Virus record (IMG/VR): IMGVR_UViG_3300029254_000143
Direction: 5' to 3' (one strand)
Length of the DNA: 4,767 nt
DNA from: a virus
Taxonomy: Duplodnaviria > Heunggongvirae > Uroviricota > Caudoviricetes
Shown here: positions 454 through 4,767 of the stretch, in pieces
Position numbering within the stretch: position 1 is the first letter of the stretch
Layout: the number at the start of each line of letters is the position of its first letter
Translations under genes and position numbers: made by a program
The notes under the pieces: generated by a model
Told to the model about the DNA's origin: nothing
Databases searched by the model: none
The model's input: only the letters and a program-made list of their open reading frames with translations

Positions 454-466
454 AGATTTCTCCCAT

Positions 467-500
467 AAAAAAAACCGCAGTACCGGTTACCCGGTCTGCG
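467..500 (-). terminator. Rho-independent terminator between J and stf (minus-strand orientation)
   Basis: Read on the minus strand: a 10-bp GC-rich stem with a 1-nt bulge (plus 476-480/496-500 and 482-486/491-495) and a GUAA tetraloop, followed by G and U8 (plus A-run 467-474). RNA: CGCAGACCGGGUAACCGGUACUGCGGUUUUUUUU. The U-tract ends 3 nt before the stf Shine-Dalgarno. Confidence 0.75.
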
Positions 501-535
501 CTCAGAGGTATAAATTGTGACTGGCTGGTGTTAAA

Positions 536-560
536 GGGTGCCGTCAGTCAAAGGCACCCG
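536..560. other. Inverted repeat / hairpin GGGTGCC-N11-GGCACCC in the J-stf spacer
   Basis: Perfect 7-bp inverted repeat (536-542 and 554-560) with an 11-nt loop. On the minus-strand RNA it is followed only by UUUAAC, so it is at best a weak terminator. It may be an RNA stability element or a protein-binding palindrome. Confidence 0.4.
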
Positions 561-637
561 TGGATAATGTACGATGTCCGGCTTTTGTCGTTTTCCGGCA
601 ATCACGAACAGATGGATGAAACCTCACTATCCACCTG

Positions 638-3600
638 TCACGATGCGGTATCAAAATCGTCTGTATAGGATTTCAGGTAAAACAGAACCGGGTCCGGGAT
701 CCGAATTTGACTCGTATCATGAAGTATTGAACCACCCCTGTAAAAAAGCACACCTGCTTCATACCTGAATGTAATTTCAACCCGCGCATCACCCTGTCCG
801 GCAGGAATACCCCATGAGCCTGACGCACTTCCGCCAACATCAGAATATACCGGCTCATATCTGCTGGCGTTTTTGGAAATCTGGACCTCCCGCTCCCCGG
901 TTTTGACTTTGCCTGACCTGGCATGAACGACAACTTTGTCATTTATCTTCATGATGAATTCACCTCTGGAAAATGAATACGCCATAAGCATAAGCTTGCG
1001 ATCAAACGGCATGTTGTCTTTCAGCAAAATCATTTTCTGAAAAGTCAGCTGGTTCTGAGTCATTACGCCCTGCCCCATATCAACCGTGTATCCCTTGACG
1101 ATATCACCAATGATTCGGTCAGCGCTCATCGTTCCATTAATGGTGCAGTCTTCCGCAATCGTCACGTTATTCAGTACCCCGGCACTGGCCGTTATCGTCC
1201 CGCTGATATCGGCATTACGGGCCGTCAGCCTGCCGTCCGGCGTCAGGGAGAATGCCGGGGGATTGCCGCCGCTGGTAATGGTGGGGGCGGTAAGAACCTT
1301 TATCAGGGCCTCATTGATAAACGTCTGTCCCCCCTGCGTGACCAGTGCGGGTGTGGTATCACCATTCTCCGGATTAATGAATGCCACGCGGTCCGCTGCC
1401 AGCAGTATCTGGCTCTGCATCCCGTCAGGGGTGTTCTCAATACCGGCACCGATACCGGCAATATAGCGACGACCATCCTGCATCTGCTGTAGCTTCACCG
1501 CCCACATGCTGTTCAGGTCATTATTTGTGTCCGTCTGCACACGCTGGATTTGCTGTATGGTGGCGTTCTGGTCCTCCAGCGTTTTACTGACCGTCTGCGT
1601 GATTTCATTGCGGGTTTCTGTGATGGTGGTCTGCATTTCCGCCATCTCGTCCTTCAGCTGACTGTTGTCAATCTCTGCCCACAGCGCCTCTGCCAGATGC
1701 GTTTTTCCTATCTTTTCCCGGAAAAGTTCCAGATAACCCGCAGCATCATTGCTCGCCCGTCCACTGGCTTCCACAAAAGCAGATTTACCCACCAGGTTGA
1801 CGCTGCGCACATAAAACCAGAAATCCTTTCCGGGCTTAATGTGCGGACCGGAGACACTCCACTGACTGCCGGTCCCCAGATAACGGGCAGAGGTTTCCAC
1901 CTGTGCGGCGTCTGCAATTTTTGCCTCCGAAAACCAGAACTCAAACTGCACCGTCGGGTCATACACCGCAAGACGCGGGACTGCCGTTATCTGAAAATAC
2001 CCCGGCGTCAGTTCAACACCGGCAGGCGCTGCCGGTGCGTTAATCCGGAACGTGGTGGTGGCGGGTTCGCCCTGCTGGCCATAGCTGTTAATCGCCCTGA
2101 CCGTCAGGGTGTATTCCCCGGGAGGCAGGCCACTGAAACGGTGCTCCGTATCGGCAGTGATGGCGGTGGTCAGCAGGCGGCTGTTCTCACCGCTTCCACT
2201 GGTCAGGCGCAGACTGAAGCGCACGCCCTTCACCACCCTCGGCGTGTCCCATTTCGCCAGCGCCAGATACTGGCTGTCAGCTGCGCTCACCTCCACCGTC
2301 AGGTGCTGCACTGCCGGTGGGATGACGCTGTTCAGGGAGCCTGACTGCGGCTCAAAGCGGGCACCGTTATCCACGATGGCTTCTTTTTCCGGTACGTGCT
2401 GCACCGCCGTGATGGCAAAGGTGCCGTCCGTGTTTTCCCGGATGGCCACACAGCGGAACAGGCGACGGCGCAGTGACGGCAGGGAGAGTCCCCACACCCC
2501 GTATGTCTCCACACCATCAGGCAGGGTACTGACCTGTATCCGGTCCGGCGCGGGGTGTGCGGTGATGTCCACACTCACCGGCTTACCGCTGCCGTTAATC
2601 AGGTTCACCGTCGATGCACCTGTCCCCGGAAGTGTCACTTCACGGTCCAGCGTCAGGGTGCGGGTGGCAGCATCAATGGACAGGACACGTCCGCCGGTCA
2701 GGGTTCCGGCATAGTCGTTATCACAGATTTCAATGATGTCGCCGGGTGTGTGACGCAGCCCCTGTGACCCGAGTGTGAAATCCACCGTCTGCGTTTCCAG
2801 CAGTTCTGTCTTTATCACCCACAGTCCGGCACGGTGGGCCTGACCGCGGCTGGTACAGCCGAACGCGTCCATCTTCAGCAGGTTGCGTCCGTAGCGCAGT
2901 ATGGCTTCCGGGTCTTCCACCAGTTCCGTGGAGGTCTGCCAGCCGTTCTGCGGGTCGGTGTAATTCACCTCCACCGCCGTGTGCCGGTCCTTCAGGGCAC
3001 TGAAGCTGTAGCGGAACCCCACGCCGTTATCATCCACCACCACATCGCTGTTGGTGTACGGCCACACCACATCCGACGGGCGGTCCTGAACGAACGTCAG
3101 CGTCTGGCCGTTCCATACCGGCATACAGCGCATCGCCGAGCAGAAATCACTGAGAACGTCCCACGCCTTACGCTGTTGTGCCAGGTACGCATTAAAGGTC
3201 ATCCGCGGCTCTGTGCCCCCGAAACCATCCGGGACCGTCTGGTCGCAGTACTGCCCGATGGCATACAGCGCCCACTTGTCCACATCCGCCGCCCCCAGGC
3301 GTTTTCCCATGCCGTAGCGCGGGTGAGTCAGCATGTCCCACAGGCACCAGGCCGGGTTATTGCTGTATGCCGGTTTCAGACTGCCGTCCCAGATACCACT
3401 GTACGTGCGTTTTTCCGGGTCATAGTTTGACGGCACCTGGATGATGCGACCGCGGATATGGTAGTTCACCGTCATCTGCTGGCCACCGAACTGCTCCGCA
3501 TCCACCTGCAGCCCCACAATGGCCGTGTTCGGGTAGCACTGTTTCACATCGATGATTTCGGTGTATGACGACCAGAGCGTCTTATTCTGCAGCTGGTCCG

Positions 3601-4168
3601 TGGTGCTGTCCGCCGTCTCCCTGACCATCCGGATGTTAAAGGGCCGGGGCGGCAGATTATCCAGAATCACCGACGCCAGGAACTGCGAGGTGGTCTTGCC
3701 GTTAATGGTGACATCCTTTTCCGTCATCCATTTACCACCACGCTCAAGCTGAATCAGCAGGCGGACAGACGTCGGGTTACGGTCACCCTTTGAGGTGGTC
3801 TCCACCAGTGACTGCACCCCGAAGGTAACCCGCAGGCGGTCAATGTTCGCGGACGTAATGGTGCGCGTCACCGGCTTTGCCTTCGTCACTTCCACACCCA
3901 GTACAGTTTCAGCTCCGGAGGACTCAAAGCCTTCCGGTGGTGTCTGCTCCTGCTCCCCGGCACGCCAGACCGCTGTCACACCGTGTATCACGGGATTACC
4001 GTCCGTGTCCGTCAGCGGGGTTTTGTTCACCAGAATACTCTGCAGGCCTTTCACCGGACCTTCAATGGGTCCCTCACCAATCGCATCAATCACGCTCATC
4101 ATCTGCGTGGATTTGAGATTATCCTTCGCCTCACGAGGCGTGTGTGCCTTGCCGCCACCTTTACCCAC
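638..4168 (-). CDS. J: Host specificity / central tail fibre (tail tip) protein J, lambda gpJ family, 1176 aa
   Basis: Single long minus-strand ORF (track 638..4213). The translation is collinear with lambda gpJ as I recall it: N-terminus (V/M)GKGGGKAHTPREAKDNLKSTQ versus lambda MGKGSSKGHTPREAKDNLKST, and conserved blocks such as NKTLWSSYTEIIDVKQCYPNTA, WCLWDMLTHPRYGMGKRLGAADVDKWALY, RLFRCVAIRENTDGTFAITAVQHVPEKEAIVDNGA and APTITSGGNPPAFSLTPDGRLTARNADISG. Start placed at GTG 4168-4166, which aligns with lambda Met1 and is preceded by CAGGAGAGGGGGACAGA (GGAG and AGGGGG, 5-11 nt upstream). Stop TGA at 640-638. Confidence 0.95.
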   Translation of the reverse strand: MGKGGGKAHTPREAKDNLKSTQMMSVIDAIGEGPIEGPVKGLQSILVNKTPLTDTDGNPVIHGVTAVWRAGEQEQTPPEGFESSGAETVLGVEVTKAKPVTRTITSANIDRLRVTFGVQSLVETTSKGDRNPTSVRLLIQLERGGKWMTEKDVTINGKTTSQFLASVILDNLPPRPFNIRMVRETADSTTDQLQNKTLWSSYTEIIDVKQCYPNTAIVGLQVDAEQFGGQQMTVNYHIRGRIIQVPSNYDPEKRTYSGIWDGSLKPAYSNNPAWCLWDMLTHPRYGMGKRLGAADVDKWALYAIGQYCDQTVPDGFGGTEPRMTFNAYLAQQRKAWDVLSDFCSAMRCMPVWNGQTLTFVQDRPSDVVWPYTNSDVVVDDNGVGFRYSFSALKDRHTAVEVNYTDPQNGWQTSTELVEDPEAILRYGRNLLKMDAFGCTSRGQAHRAGLWVIKTELLETQTVDFTLGSQGLRHTPGDIIEICDNDYAGTLTGGRVLSIDAATRTLTLDREVTLPGTGASTVNLINGSGKPVSVDITAHPAPDRIQVSTLPDGVETYGVWGLSLPSLRRRLFRCVAIRENTDGTFAITAVQHVPEKEAIVDNGARFEPQSGSLNSVIPPAVQHLTVEVSAADSQYLALAKWDTPRVVKGVRFSLRLTSGSGENSRLLTTAITADTEHRFSGLPPGEYTLTVRAINSYGQQGEPATTTFRINAPAAPAGVELTPGYFQITAVPRLAVYDPTVQFEFWFSEAKIADAAQVETSARYLGTGSQWSVSGPHIKPGKDFWFYVRSVNLVGKSAFVEASGRASNDAAGYLELFREKIGKTHLAEALWAEIDNSQLKDEMAEMQTTITETRNEITQTVSKTLEDQNATIQQIQRVQTDTNNDLNSMWAVKLQQMQDGRRYIAGIGAGIENTPDGMQSQILLAADRVAFINPENGDTTPALVTQGGQTFINEALIKVLTAPTITSGGNPPAFSLTPDGRLTARNADISGTITASAGVLNNVTIAEDCTINGTMSADRIIGDIVKGYTVDMGQGVMTQNQLTFQKMILLKDNMPFDRKLMLMAYSFSRGEFIMKINDKVVVHARSGKVKTGEREVQISKNASRYEPVYSDVGGSASGSWGIPAGQGDARVEITFRYEAGVLFYRGGSILHDTSQIRIPDPVLFYLKSYTDDFDTAS

Positions 4169-4185
4169 TCTGTCCCCCTCTCCTG
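4169..4185 (-). promoter_or_regulatory. Ribosome-binding region of J
   Basis: Minus-strand sequence CAGGAGAGGGGGACAGA immediately 5' of the GTG start. The purine-rich GGAG / AGGGGG is at appropriate spacing. Confidence 0.6.
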
Positions 4186-4211
4186 TCTGATGTCTGAATC
4201 TGTTTATGCCC

Positions 4212-4243
4212 AAAAAACAACAGGCACCCCGGAGAATGCCTGT
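4212..4243 (-). terminator. Putative weak intrinsic terminator on the minus strand, just downstream of the small ORF and upstream of the J RBS
   Basis: 7-bp stem (plus 4220-4226 / 4237-4243; ACAGGCA / TGCCTGT) with a 10-nt loop. On the minus-strand RNA it is followed by UGUUUUUUGGG (plus A-run 4212-4217). The stem is shorter and less GC-rich than the other two terminators, so the call is tentative. Confidence 0.45.
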
Positions 4244-4244
4244 A

Positions 4245-4340
4245 TCATGACTGAATAAAAATTCTGAATATCTTCACATTTTCACAAACTGACTGTGGCG
4301 CGTATAATTTCGCTGCGTTAGTGTTTTTTTGCCGTGACAT
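4245..4340 (-). CDS. Candidate small ORF, 31 aa (MSRQKNTNAAKLYAPQSVCENVKIFRIFIQS), hypothetical protein
   Basis: Minus-strand ATG at 4340-4338 preceded by a canonical AAGGAG Shine-Dalgarno (4356-4351) with a 10-nt spacer. 31 sense codons, then TGA (4247-4245), followed directly by the hairpin and U-run at 4243-4212. It lies in AT-rich DNA, where open frames of this length are less likely by chance. I recognise no family and the peptide is not hydrophobic. It is too short for the supplied ORF track. It could be an artefact of the antisense RNA gene on the opposite strand. Confidence 0.3.
   Translation of the reverse strand: MSRQKNTNAAKLYAPQSVCENVKIFRIFIQS
4273..4308 (+). promoter_or_regulatory. 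Sigma70-type promoter on the plus strand (antisense to the tail genes): -35 TTCACA (4281-4286), 16-bp spacer, -10 TATAAT (4303-4308)
   Basis: Perfect consensus -10 hexamer TATAAT. The -35 matches TTGACA at 5 of 6 positions with a 16-bp spacer. A tandem TTCACA copy sits at 4273-4278 and an A/T-rich UP-like tract at 4254-4272. Predicted start is around 4315. A strong plus-strand terminator lies ~100 nt downstream. Confidence 0.5.
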
Positions 4341-4413
4341 AAAAAAACAACTCCTTAACACTAATCTTCATTTGTCTGTCCCCGCAGCTCCGCGATCACT
4401 GCGGGATTTTTTT
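4315..4413 (+). ncRNA. Candidate ~100-nt small RNA (antisense to the RBS and start of the 31-codon ORF), from the promoter to the intrinsic terminator
   Basis: Bounded by the TATAAT promoter and the terminator at 4381-4413. No plausible plus-strand ORF or RBS. Predicted structure: a 5' stem (4318-4325 UUAGUGUU pairing with 4357-4364 AACACUAA, extended by U7 4324-4330 pairing with A7 4341-4347), a single-stranded U/AU-rich linker AUCUUCAUUUGUCUGUC (4364-4380), and a terminator hairpin with U7. Contains a CUCCUU anti-Shine-Dalgarno-like motif (4351-4356). Confidence 0.45.
4381..4413 (+). terminator. Rho-independent terminator, plus-strand orientation
   Basis: Perfect 7-bp stem CCCGCAG (4381-4387) / CTGCGGG (4399-4405) with 6 of 7 GC pairs and an 11-nt loop, then A and T7 (4407-4413). 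On the minus strand the hairpin is preceded by the A-run and not followed by U, so it is unidirectional for plus-strand transcripts. It ends 5 nt before the stop codon of gene I. Confidence 0.8.
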
Positions 4414-4418
4414 ATGTT

Positions 4419-4767
4419 TTATCCCTGTCGACCAATAACCACCACCTTTCCGCCCCCGCCTTCATCACGGGTGCTGATGTCCTGAGAGATACGTCGTGAA
4501 CCAACCAGCATTTCCCCGTAAGACACCGGCATCGGGTTACCCTGGGCAATCATGTTGTCCAGCGAGGAAAAGTACGTGTTCTGTTTACCGTTATCCGTTG
4601 CCCGGTAATCCGGTGTCTTTGCCTTCGGGGCAAGCATCTGCGCCACACCACCCAGAATCATGCTGGCACCCAGTGAAAACAGCATCGTGGTGGCAGAAAA
4701 ACCACCGGCTGCCAGGGCTGAACCCCATAACGCCATTGATGCCCCGGCCGTGAAGAAAGACCCCACA
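4419..4767 (-). CDS. I: Tail assembly protein I (lambda gpI-like), C-terminal ~115 codons; 5' end lies beyond the window
   Basis: Minus-strand translation ...GSFFTAGASMALWGSALAAGGFSATTMLFSLGASMILGGVAQMLAPKAKTPDYRATDNGKQNTYFSSLDNMIAQGNPMPVSYGEMLVGSRRISQDISTRDEGGGGKVVVIGRQG, stop TAA at 4421-4419. This closely resembles the C-terminal part of lambda gpI as I recall it (...GSFFTAGA...LFSLGASMVLGGVAQMLAPKA...TDNGKQNTYFSSLDNMVAQGN...YGEM.VGSR..SQ.IST.DEG.GG.VVVIGR). The Met at 4766 is internal and the frame is open to the window edge. Confidence 0.85.
   Translation of the reverse strand, partial: VGSFFTAGASMALWGSALAAGGFSATTMLFSLGASMILGGVAQMLAPKAKTPDYRATDNGKQNTYFSSLDNMIAQGNPMPVSYGEMLVGSRRISQDISTRDEGGGGKVVVIGRQG

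What the first reader, a model, noticed from the sequence alone, without database searches (positions are those of the whole stretch)
4212..4418. AT-rich moron-like insert between tail genes I and J carrying convergent sense and antisense expression signals
In phage lambda, I and J are directly adjacent. Here ~250 bp of visibly AT-rich DNA separates them, flanked by GC-rich tail genes. The insert contains, on the minus strand, an AAGGAG SD, a 31-codon ORF and a hairpin with U-run; and on the plus strand, a near-consensus promoter, a ~100-nt structured RNA and a strong terminator. This promoter/gene/terminator layout between conserved structural genes is typical of phage morons, which often carry lysogenic-conversion or regulatory functions. 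An RNA-based or sense/antisense moron in the tail operon would be unusual. Prophage-encoded regulatory sRNAs (including anti-sRNAs) have been reported in pathogenic E. coli, and I cannot rule out that this is one of them.
Basis: partly seen in the sequence, partly recalled or inferred. Interest (0 to 1): 0.75.

Follow-up and report, generated by a model that had tools for sequence, protein, structure and literature searches.

The report
Known prophage small RNA PasB
The AT-rich DNA between phage tail genes I and J carries PasB, a small regulatory RNA already found and validated in pathogenic E. coli, so the finding is real but not new.

Summary
Tail genes I (4419-4766) and J (638-4168) lie on the minus strand, separated by 250 bp of AT-rich DNA (GC 0.42 against 0.57). 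The published PasB Northern probe matches window 4386-4408 exactly. The published E2348/69 coordinates map to window 4330-4413, in the same I-J gap and antisense to the tail genes. In EPEC, PasB is Hfq-dependent, Northern-validated and has about 37 RIL-seq partners (PMC8550237); its distribution was surveyed in 2026. The module 4255-4414 occurs in 1649 of 5426 complete E. coli genomes and is annotated in none of the records listed. Lambda lacks it (60-bp gap).

The minus-strand reading mostly fails. The 31-codon ORF is kept in 2 of the other 42 spacer variants. Its 'AAGGAG' is the complement of PasB's CUCCUU seed. The minus-strand hairpin with U-run is a tail-sense element before J. Lambda has a hairpin at the same place, and it recombines independently of the PasB module.

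New here: six of 11 RIL-seq partners carry 9-11 nt perfect complements to PasB nt 37-59, mostly over start sites. The window allele changes three bases of that seed. Verdict: already known, low interest.

The parts
4419..4766 (-). 3' part of tail assembly gene I (115 codons, runs off the window end); stop codon at 4421-4419
   Evidence: 71% identical to the lambda I C-terminus, E 1e-51. RefSeq relatives are annotated 'tail assembly protein'.
4255..4418 (+). PasB module (moron): upstream block, promoter, sRNA and terminator, inserted between the I stop codon and the leader of J
   Evidence: Similarity to all allele types starts at about 4255. BLAST breakpoints fall at 4167/4255 in L124 and L123. 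GC is 0.384. Found in 1649 of 5426 E. coli genomes.
4263..4278 (+). Conserved block just upstream of the -35 with a CRP-like half-site pair TCTGA-N6-TCACA (speculative regulator site)
   Evidence: One mismatch to TGTGA-N6-TCACA, but 46 of 200 shuffles of the window also give such a match. Identical in all but one of the 43 terminator-anchored spacer variants. The spacing to the -10 is not canonical.
4281..4308 (+). Sigma-70 promoter of PasB: TTCACA, 16 nt, TATAAT
   Evidence: 11 of 12 matches. In 148 promoter-anchored copies the -10 has a mean majority fraction of 0.95.
4315..4413 (+). PasB, predicted primary transcript (about 99 nt). The published 83-nt species maps to 4330-4413.
   Evidence: Exact match to the published Northern probe at 4386-4408. 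Coordinates mapped through alignment A1. 90.6% identical to E2348/69 PasB over 85 aligned columns.
4352..4374 (+). Seed region UCCUUAACACUAAUCUUCAUUUG. Seed 1 (4352-4364) differs at 3 bases from E2348/69; seed 2 (4365-4374) is identical.
   Evidence: Six of 11 RIL-seq partners have 9-11 nt perfect complements to the homologous nt 37-59 of E2348/69 PasB. The window allele keeps only the 10-nt tolC match.
4381..4413 (+). Intrinsic terminator: CCCGCAG / CUGCGGG stem, 11-nt loop, U7
   Evidence: In the promoter-anchored sample both arms are invariant or nearly so (0.99 and 1.00) while the loop varies from 4 to 16 nt.
4211..4243 (-). Tail-sense hairpin (10 pairs) plus U-run, about 45 nt upstream of the J start. 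It belongs to the J leader, not to the PasB module.
   Evidence: Folds at -15.9 kcal/mol on the minus strand against -9.5 on the plus strand. 98% of cells are paired over 6 variants, with G-U pairs only in the tail sense. Lambda has a tail-sense hairpin with U-run at the same position.
638..4168 (-). Tail tip gene J, GTG start at 4168-4166
   Evidence: Pfam FNIII-A_GpJ, E 1.4e-36. Aligned to the lambda J start and to the RefSeq J start of E2348/69.
4245..4340 (-). 31-codon ORF with AAGGAG: judged not a gene
   Evidence: Intact only in the window and in L067/L075, out of 43 unique spacers. The others lack the ATG or change frame through T-run length variation.

Best explanation
The I-J gap holds the gene for PasB, a prophage-borne, Hfq-dependent, trans-acting small RNA.

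How it is made (inferred from sequence): in the lysogen, host RNA polymerase starts at a near-consensus sigma-70 promoter (4281-4308). It transcribes antisense to the silent tail operon and stops at the CCCGCAG/CUGCGGG hairpin plus U-run, just short of the I stop codon. This gives an RNA of about 99 nt. It may be trimmed in the U-rich leader to the published 83-nt species.

How it acts: Hfq binds and stabilises the RNA (shown for E2348/69, from the literature). The unstructured stretch upstream of the terminator (4352-4374) pairs with mRNAs, mostly across the ribosome-binding site or start codon, which should block translation. The pairing is computed here; repression is inferred.

The window carries a rare allele. 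Its promoter, terminator and seed 2 match E2348/69, but three bases of seed 1 differ, so part of the EPEC target set is probably not shared.

The tail-sense hairpin with U-run before J is a separate element of the late operon, found at the same position in lambda. It is inferred to stop stray transcription in lysogens and to be read through by Q-modified polymerase during lytic growth.
For: Identity as PasB:
- The published probe matches window 4386-4408 exactly.
- E2348/69 PasB (NC_011601 1466343..1466261, minus strand) lies between I (ends 1466255) and J (starts 1466496). It maps to window 4330-4413 at 90.6% identity.

Expression and Hfq dependence, from PMC8550237:
- The Northern blot confirmed size and Hfq-dependent stability.
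- pasB baseMean is 482 and 1082, against 5 for I and 15 for J. The log2 change in the hfq mutant is -6.8 and -2.4.
- PasB has 37 interactions and is almost always the second RNA in the chimeras.

Signals:
- The promoter matches 11 of 12 positions.
- Promoter and terminator arms are nearly invariant in 148 copies, while the body varies.

Mechanism:
- Partners with 9-11 nt perfect complements to PasB nt 37-59 are yijD (ribosome-binding site), napF (start codon), tolC (start codon), caiF (codons 2-4), ydbJ (just 5' of the SD) and ler (with gene positions).
- Shuffled targets reach these lengths in 0-11 of 200 trials.

Module status:
- Lambda lacks the module.
- 1649 of 5426 E. coli genomes carry it.
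- Recombination breakpoints fall at 4167 and 4255.
Against: - No expression data exist for this window's own allele or host.
- The promoter-predicted start (about 4315) and the published 5' end (equivalent to 4330) differ by 15 nt. The published end was set from read coverage and band size.
- Five of the 11 partners show no long perfect match.
- The ler site lies near the 3' end of the coding sequence, not at a start site.
- No target has been validated with reporters, and the source papers say PasB's function is not elucidated.
- The 5' stem predicted for the 99-nt form has no significant covariation: 98 of 500 shuffles reach its score.
- Rfam 15 gave no match at gathering threshold, so no curated model could confirm the assignment.
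Confidence: 0.88

Rival explanations
1. PasB acts mainly in cis. It is fully complementary to the I-J intercistronic part of the late tail mRNA. During lytic growth it would form a duplex of about 99 bp, cut by RNase III, or its transcription would collide with late transcription. Either effect would tune J expression relative to I.
For: The gene sits exactly between I and J, antisense to them, in every copy seen. The sRNA ends 5 nt from the I stop codon. On the tail-sense strand the PasB terminator hairpin has no U-run after it, so late transcription is not blocked there.
Against: PasB is abundant when I and J are essentially silent. It was recovered on Hfq ligated to many unlinked mRNAs. It does not overlap either coding region or the J ribosome-binding site. 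Lambda builds tails without it. In the sodC variant the promoter is replaced, yet the tail genes are intact.
Confidence: 0.12
2. The minus strand encodes a small protein of 31 codons, translated from AAGGAG, with the hairpin and U-run as its terminator. PasB would be its antisense regulator, as in a type I toxin-antitoxin pair.
For: AAGGAG lies 10 nt before an ATG. A 31-codon ORF and a downstream terminator-like hairpin lie on the same strand.
Against: Only 3 of 43 unique spacers, the window among them, keep the ORF. The E2348/69 and L015 types have no ATG there. T-run length variation shifts the frame. The scan found no minus-strand promoter. AAGGAG is explained as the complement of the PasB seed, which is used by RIL-seq partners.
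Confidence: 0.03
3. A second, tail-sense sRNA (4292..4211, STnc100-like) ends at the hairpin before J.
For: Weak cmscan match to STnc100, 20.7 bits, E 0.014 in a 331-nt search. The segment folds better than shuffles, z -2.8.
Against: The score is far below the gathering score of 47, and 127 of the 206 model positions are skipped. There is no promoter-like site on that strand. No term search for the two flanking locus tags found a tail-sense intergenic RNA between E2348C_1436 and 1437 in the held RIL-seq tables, some of which were truncated on storage. The 5' half of the match is simply the complement of the PasB promoter. Lambda has a hairpin at the same place without that upstream part.
Confidence: 0.05

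Closest known systems
PasB of EPEC O127:H6 E2348/69 (E2348CN_0006; Pearl Mizrahi et al. 2021, PMC8550237; survey by Zhu, Shabalina and Storz 2026, doi 10.64898/2026.05.13.724894)
   Same: Same locus (the I-J gap, antisense to the tail genes). The promoter block matches at 57 of 60 positions. The terminator and seed 2 are identical. The Northern probe matches exactly. Overall identity is 90.6% over the published RNA.
   Different: The 5' body differs (GUGACAUAA against CGAGUAACA). Three substitutions fall in seed 1, among them the published position 27 (C to A). These remove the 9-11 nt matches to yijD, caiF, ler and napF. The allele is rare: only one complete E. coli genome (99RCEF) carries an identical copy.
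Type-2 PasB alleles in Stx phages and O157-type prophages (VT1-Sakai, Stx2a_WGPS6 NC_049945, L015 type)
   Same: Same promoter block, same terminator arms, same position next to the I stop codon.
   Different: The seed stretch differs (CUUCGUAACUCUC) and the terminator loop is longer. The module is usually paired with a different 175-nt J leader that carries a bidirectional terminator, giving spacers of 340-344 bp.
Anti-sRNAs AgvB and AsxR of EHEC prophages (Tree et al. 2014, PMC4104026)
   Same: Short, Hfq-bound, prophage-encoded RNAs with a conserved terminator end and a variable pairing end, carried in moron sites.
   Different: They lie downstream of PR' and Q, not in the tail operon. They are 51-60 nt long and act by sponging the core sRNAs GcvB and FnrS. 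The window has no Rfam match to them.
Prophage sodC-F morons of E. coli O157 (PMC2569942)
   Same: They occupy the same I-J junction on the same antisense strand in 9 of 76 related loci, which shows this junction is a moron slot.
   Different: The cargo is a protein (Cu,Zn superoxide dismutase). It replaces the PasB promoter and leaves a promoterless PasB body downstream.

Membership tests
PasB sRNA | Sequence homology to the E2348/69 PasB gene | tested here: met
   Exact 23-nt probe match. 77 of 85 aligned columns are identical. The whole spacer aligns.
PasB sRNA | Location between tail genes I and J, antisense to them | tested here: met
   The same arrangement holds in all 76 related loci that have both genes.
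PasB sRNA | 3' stem-loop followed by a U-tract (intrinsic terminator and likely Hfq site) | tested here: met
   The arms are invariant or nearly so in a sample chosen without regard to the terminator.
PasB sRNA | Own promoter active in lysogens | tested here: inconclusive
   An 11-of-12 sigma-70 match that is conserved. Activity is known only for the E2348/69 copy. The exact start site is unresolved.
PasB sRNA | Hfq-dependent abundance and Hfq-mediated pairing with mRNAs | not testable with these tools
   Literature only, for the E2348/69 allele: log2 change -6.8 and -2.4 in the hfq mutant and 37 RIL-seq interactions.
PasB sRNA | Seed sequence shared with the reference allele | tested here: inconclusive
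   Seed 2 (UCUUCAUUUG) is identical. Seed 1 differs at 3 bases and loses four of the six long target matches.
Phage moron (Juhala et al. 2000 sense, as cited in PMC4104026) | Extra DNA between conserved phage genes, with its own promoter and terminator, deviant base composition, and present in some relatives only | tested here: met
   GC 0.38 against 0.57. Promoter and terminator found. Absent from lambda. Present in 30% of E. coli genomes. sodC occupies the same slot elsewhere.
Anti-sRNA family (AgvB RF02702, AsxR RF02703) | Match to the family models; position 3' of PR' | tested here: not met
   No Rfam hit at gathering threshold, nor at E up to 10 in the spacer. The locus is in the tail operon.
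STnc100 / PasD (RF02076) | Score at or above the gathering score of 47 bits | tested here: not met
   20.7 bits on the minus strand, with 127 model positions skipped.

The most novel reading that the evidence does not exclude
PasB may be a 'seed cassette'. The promoter block and terminator arms stay fixed while the pairing stretch between them is swapped or mutated among prophages. Different lysogens would then rewire different host genes. The EPEC allele matches ler, napF, yijD, caiF, ydbJ and tolC; this window's allele keeps only the tolC-type seed. Because the gene is the exact complement of the I-J intercistronic RNA, the late transcript could also soak up PasB on induction, linking release of host targets to the lytic switch. 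Neither idea has been tested, and my evidence excludes neither.
Probability: 0.25. Interest if true: 0.45.

Novelty: already known. Interest (0 to 1): 0.15.

Why it matters
It matters little as a discovery. The sRNA was described in 2021 and its distribution was mapped in 2026.

It has modest practical value:
- PasB is present in about 30% of complete E. coli genomes, and none of the matching RefSeq records I saw listed annotates it. Genome scans will therefore keep re-finding it as an odd AT-rich gap in the tail operon.
- The analysis gives a precise anatomy. The PasB module (4255-4418) is separate from the J leader and its tail-sense hairpin.
- It shows that the tempting antisense ORF is spurious.
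- It offers a testable seed (nt 37-59) with named targets, tolC, napF, yijD, caiF and ler among them. Common allele differences, such as published position 27, fall inside that seed.

Tried and rejected
- **Rfam.** No family reached the gathering threshold anywhere in the window. In the permissive search only weak hits appeared: STnc100 at 20.7 bits, Hrs1, Trp leader and GcvB. All were rejected as matches driven by the terminator or by composition.
- **Anti-sRNA idea (AgvB, AsxR).** Rejected on locus and on the absence of any model match.
- **Minus-strand small protein.** Rejected on conservation.
- **Conserved 5' stem in PasB.** RNAalifold keeps only the terminator. The stem I proposed is 91% paired but does not exceed shuffles.
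- **RNAduplex on RIL-seq partners.** It gave long, loop-ridden duplexes that told me nothing. I replaced it with a search for the longest perfect complement, with shuffles as control.
- **First genome-contig scan, using the promoter and leader sequence.** It found nothing. The second scan found only E. albertii and a contaminant contig.
- **CRP site.** One mismatch to the core consensus, but 46 of 200 shuffles of the window do as well, and the spacing to the -10 is off. I kept it only as a speculation.
- **Extra gene in the longer (343-bp) L015 spacer.** None found.
- **Not done.** I did not check whether the EcOnc list of Tree et al. (Sakai coordinates) includes the I-J locus.

Full report
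**1. What is in the sequence**

The window is a lambdoid prophage tail region read against the direction of the genes. It is 97.9% identical over its whole length to prophages in complete E. coli genomes.
- J occupies 638-4168 on the minus strand. It has a Pfam GpJ domain. Its GTG start at 4168 aligns with the lambda J ATG and with the RefSeq J start of E2348/69.
- The 3' part of I occupies 4419-4766 on the minus strand and is 71% identical to lambda I.
- The gap 4169-4418 is 250 bp with GC 0.42, against 0.57 for J and 0.56 for I. It holds the lowest-GC stretch of the window.
- Lambda's I-J gap is 60 bp.

Its left edge (4212) came from taking TTG 4213 as the J start.

**2. The plus-strand unit is PasB**

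The scan finds TTCACA-16-TATAAT at 4281-4308 (11 of 12 matches) and a hairpin with T7 at about 4381-4413. Rfam 15 has no family for it. A literature search led to PasB. This is one of five 'pathogenicity-associated' sRNAs found by RIL-seq in EPEC E2348/69 and confirmed by Northern blot (PMC8550237).

Three results tie the window to PasB:
- Table S6 of that paper gives the PasB probe AATCCCGCAGTGATCGCGGAGCT and the coordinates NC_011601 1466343..1466261, minus strand.
- The reverse complement of the probe matches window 4386-4408 exactly, with none expected by chance.
- In E2348/69 those coordinates lie between I (ends 1466255) and J (starts 1466496), antisense to both. The two spacers align throughout, and the published RNA maps to window 4330-4413. 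Identity is 77 of 85 aligned columns.

The same paper's data show how PasB behaves in E2348/69:
- PasB is abundant while the tail genes are silent: baseMean 482 and 1082, against 5 for I and 15 for J.
- It depends strongly on Hfq: log2 change -6.8 and -2.4 in the hfq mutant.
- It has 37 interactions and is nearly always the second RNA of the chimera.

A 2026 preprint surveyed PasB across 147,705 genomes. [quoted passage not shown] The finding is therefore already known.

**3. Anatomy and evolution**

I collected two samples from viral contigs: 116 copies anchored on the terminator and 148 anchored on the promoter.

In the promoter-anchored sample, conservation (mean majority fraction) differs sharply by region:

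| Region | Conservation |
|---|---|
| Terminator arms | 0.99 and 1.00 |
| Promoter and leader | 0.92-0.95 |
| Seed stretch | 0.82 |
| Terminator loop (4 to 16 nt long) | 0.80 |
| 5' body | 0.76 |

- RNAalifold keeps only the terminator as consensus structure. A 5' stem predicted for the 99-nt form is 91% paired but has no significant covariation.
- Similarity among all alleles begins at about 4255.
- Two unrelated contigs show BLAST breakpoints at 4167 and 4255. The spacer therefore consists of two modules that assort independently: the PasB module (4255-4418) and the J leader (4169-4254).
- The module occurs in 1649 of 5426 complete E. coli genomes, at 2381 places. None of the records listed annotates it, and only strain 99RCEF has an identical allele.
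- Among one genome per species, it appears only in E. albertii and in a contaminant contig.

**4. The minus-strand features**

- The 31-codon ORF survives in the window and in two other spacer variants out of 43. The E2348/69 and L015 types lack the ATG, and T-run length variation shifts the frame. I conclude it is not a gene.
- Its 'AAGGAG' is the complement of CUCCUU in the PasB seed.
- The hairpin 4243..4220 with its U-run is real and strand-specific. It folds at -15.9 kcal/mol on the minus strand against -9.5 on the plus strand.
- Over six variants, 98% of cells are paired, one pair changes on both sides, and the G-U pairs exist only in the tail sense. Six sequences are too few for significance.
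- Lambda's 60-bp gap carries a tail-sense hairpin with U-run at the same position. The L015-type leader carries a different one.
- A similar hairpin with U8 precedes the tail-fibre gene at 488..473.

I read these hairpins as terminators inside the late operon that predate the PasB insertion. The scan found no minus-strand promoter in the spacer. The weak STnc100 match (20.7 bits against a gathering score of 47) is not credible.

**5. Mechanism**

I took 11 RIL-seq partners with tight coordinates and fetched their sequences. For each I looked for the longest perfect complement to E2348/69 PasB. Six have 9-11 nt runs, and all six fall within PasB nt 37-59, UCCUUCACAUUGAUCUUCAUUUG:

| Partner | Run length | Site on the mRNA |
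|---|---|---|
| yijD | 11 nt | ribosome-binding site |
| napF | 11 nt | across the GTG start |
| tolC | 10 nt | across the ATG |
| caiF | 9 nt | codons 2-4 |
| ydbJ | 9 nt | just 5' of the SD |
| ler | 9 nt | 3' part of the coding sequence |

- Shuffled targets reach these lengths in 0-11 of 200 trials.
- This supports the canonical Hfq-sRNA mechanism of blocking translation start. It also places the seed partly upstream of where the preprint guessed.
- The window allele has three substitutions in the first half of that stretch. One of them is at the published position 27. These remove four of the six matches and leave the 10-nt tolC match.
- Pairing is computed here. Repression is inferred, and no reporter data exist.

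**6. Open points**

- The predicted start (about 4315) and the published 5' end (equivalent to 4330) differ by 15 nt. The published end was set from read coverage and band size. Processing in the U-rich leader is another possibility.
- A CRP-like site (4263-4278) sits just upstream of the -35 and is highly conserved. PasB is higher in the condition where Spf is low. However, the match is not significant on its own and the spacing is unusual.

**7. Verdict**

The 'moron carrying a regulatory RNA' reading is right for the plus strand. The minus-strand gene is not real, and the element is the already described PasB. Novelty: already known. Interest: low.

Noticed in passing
L197 349-1201 (also L219, L220, L226, L228, L230, L235, L241, L244): In 9 of 76 closely related loci the I-J gap is 851 bp. 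It carries a Cu,Zn superoxide dismutase gene (sodC, Pfam Sod_Cu, E 4e-32) on the PasB strand in place of the PasB promoter. The sodC terminator follows, then a promoterless type-2 PasB body with its terminator. The I-J junction therefore acts as a slot for antisense morons, and PasB might there be made from sodC read-through.
   Followed up: partly
L142 (viral contig IMGVR_UViG_2534681940_000025), about 640-670: In one copy, sequence unrelated to the other alleles begins after TTCACAAACTGA, just 3' of the -35. I recognise its first bases (TGAACCGCCCCGGGAATCCTGGAGACTAAACTCCC) from memory as an IS629/IS3-family end; this was not checked with a tool. The insertion would silence the sRNA.
   Followed up: no
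L124 (NZ_JBHTEB010000006.1, labelled Streptomyces flavalbus): This 3.4-kb contig is 96.8% identical to the window's J and 91.9% identical to PasB plus I. It is almost certainly E. coli prophage contamination of that assembly.
   Followed up: partly
window 455-637: J is followed by a 170-bp gap and then directly by a tail-fibre gene, with no lom-like ORF between. On the tail-sense strand a strong hairpin with U8 (488..473; -21.7 kcal/mol, z -3.2) sits just before the fibre gene's SD. It resembles the hairpin before J and lambda's I-J hairpin.
   Followed up: partly
window 4263-4278: TCTGA-N6-TCACA lies immediately upstream of the PasB -35, inside a block that is nearly invariant across alleles. 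It has one mismatch to the CRP core consensus. PasB is higher in the growth condition where the CRP-repressed sRNA Spf is low. The match alone is not significant (46 of 200 shuffles) and the spacing is not canonical.
   Followed up: partly
L015 7758-8100 and the many similar loci: The commonest spacer type (340-344 bp) pairs a type-2 PasB with a different 175-nt J leader. That leader holds a bidirectional terminator (CCCCGGTATC..GATACCGGGG flanked by T runs on both strands). No extra gene is present.
   Followed up: partly
window 4255-4414 against RefSeq E. coli genomes: 1654 records hold the PasB module. All 12 best records listed show 'none' under annotated features, and in the search with the wider query the only feature listed was the flanking tail assembly gene. 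So this validated sRNA is not annotated in any record I saw.
   Followed up: no
window 4315-4330: The stretch between the predicted start and the published 5' end (GCGUUAGUGUUUUUUU) is highly conserved (0.92), more so than the RNA body. Either it belongs to the primary transcript and is trimmed, or it is needed for promoter function.
   Followed up: no
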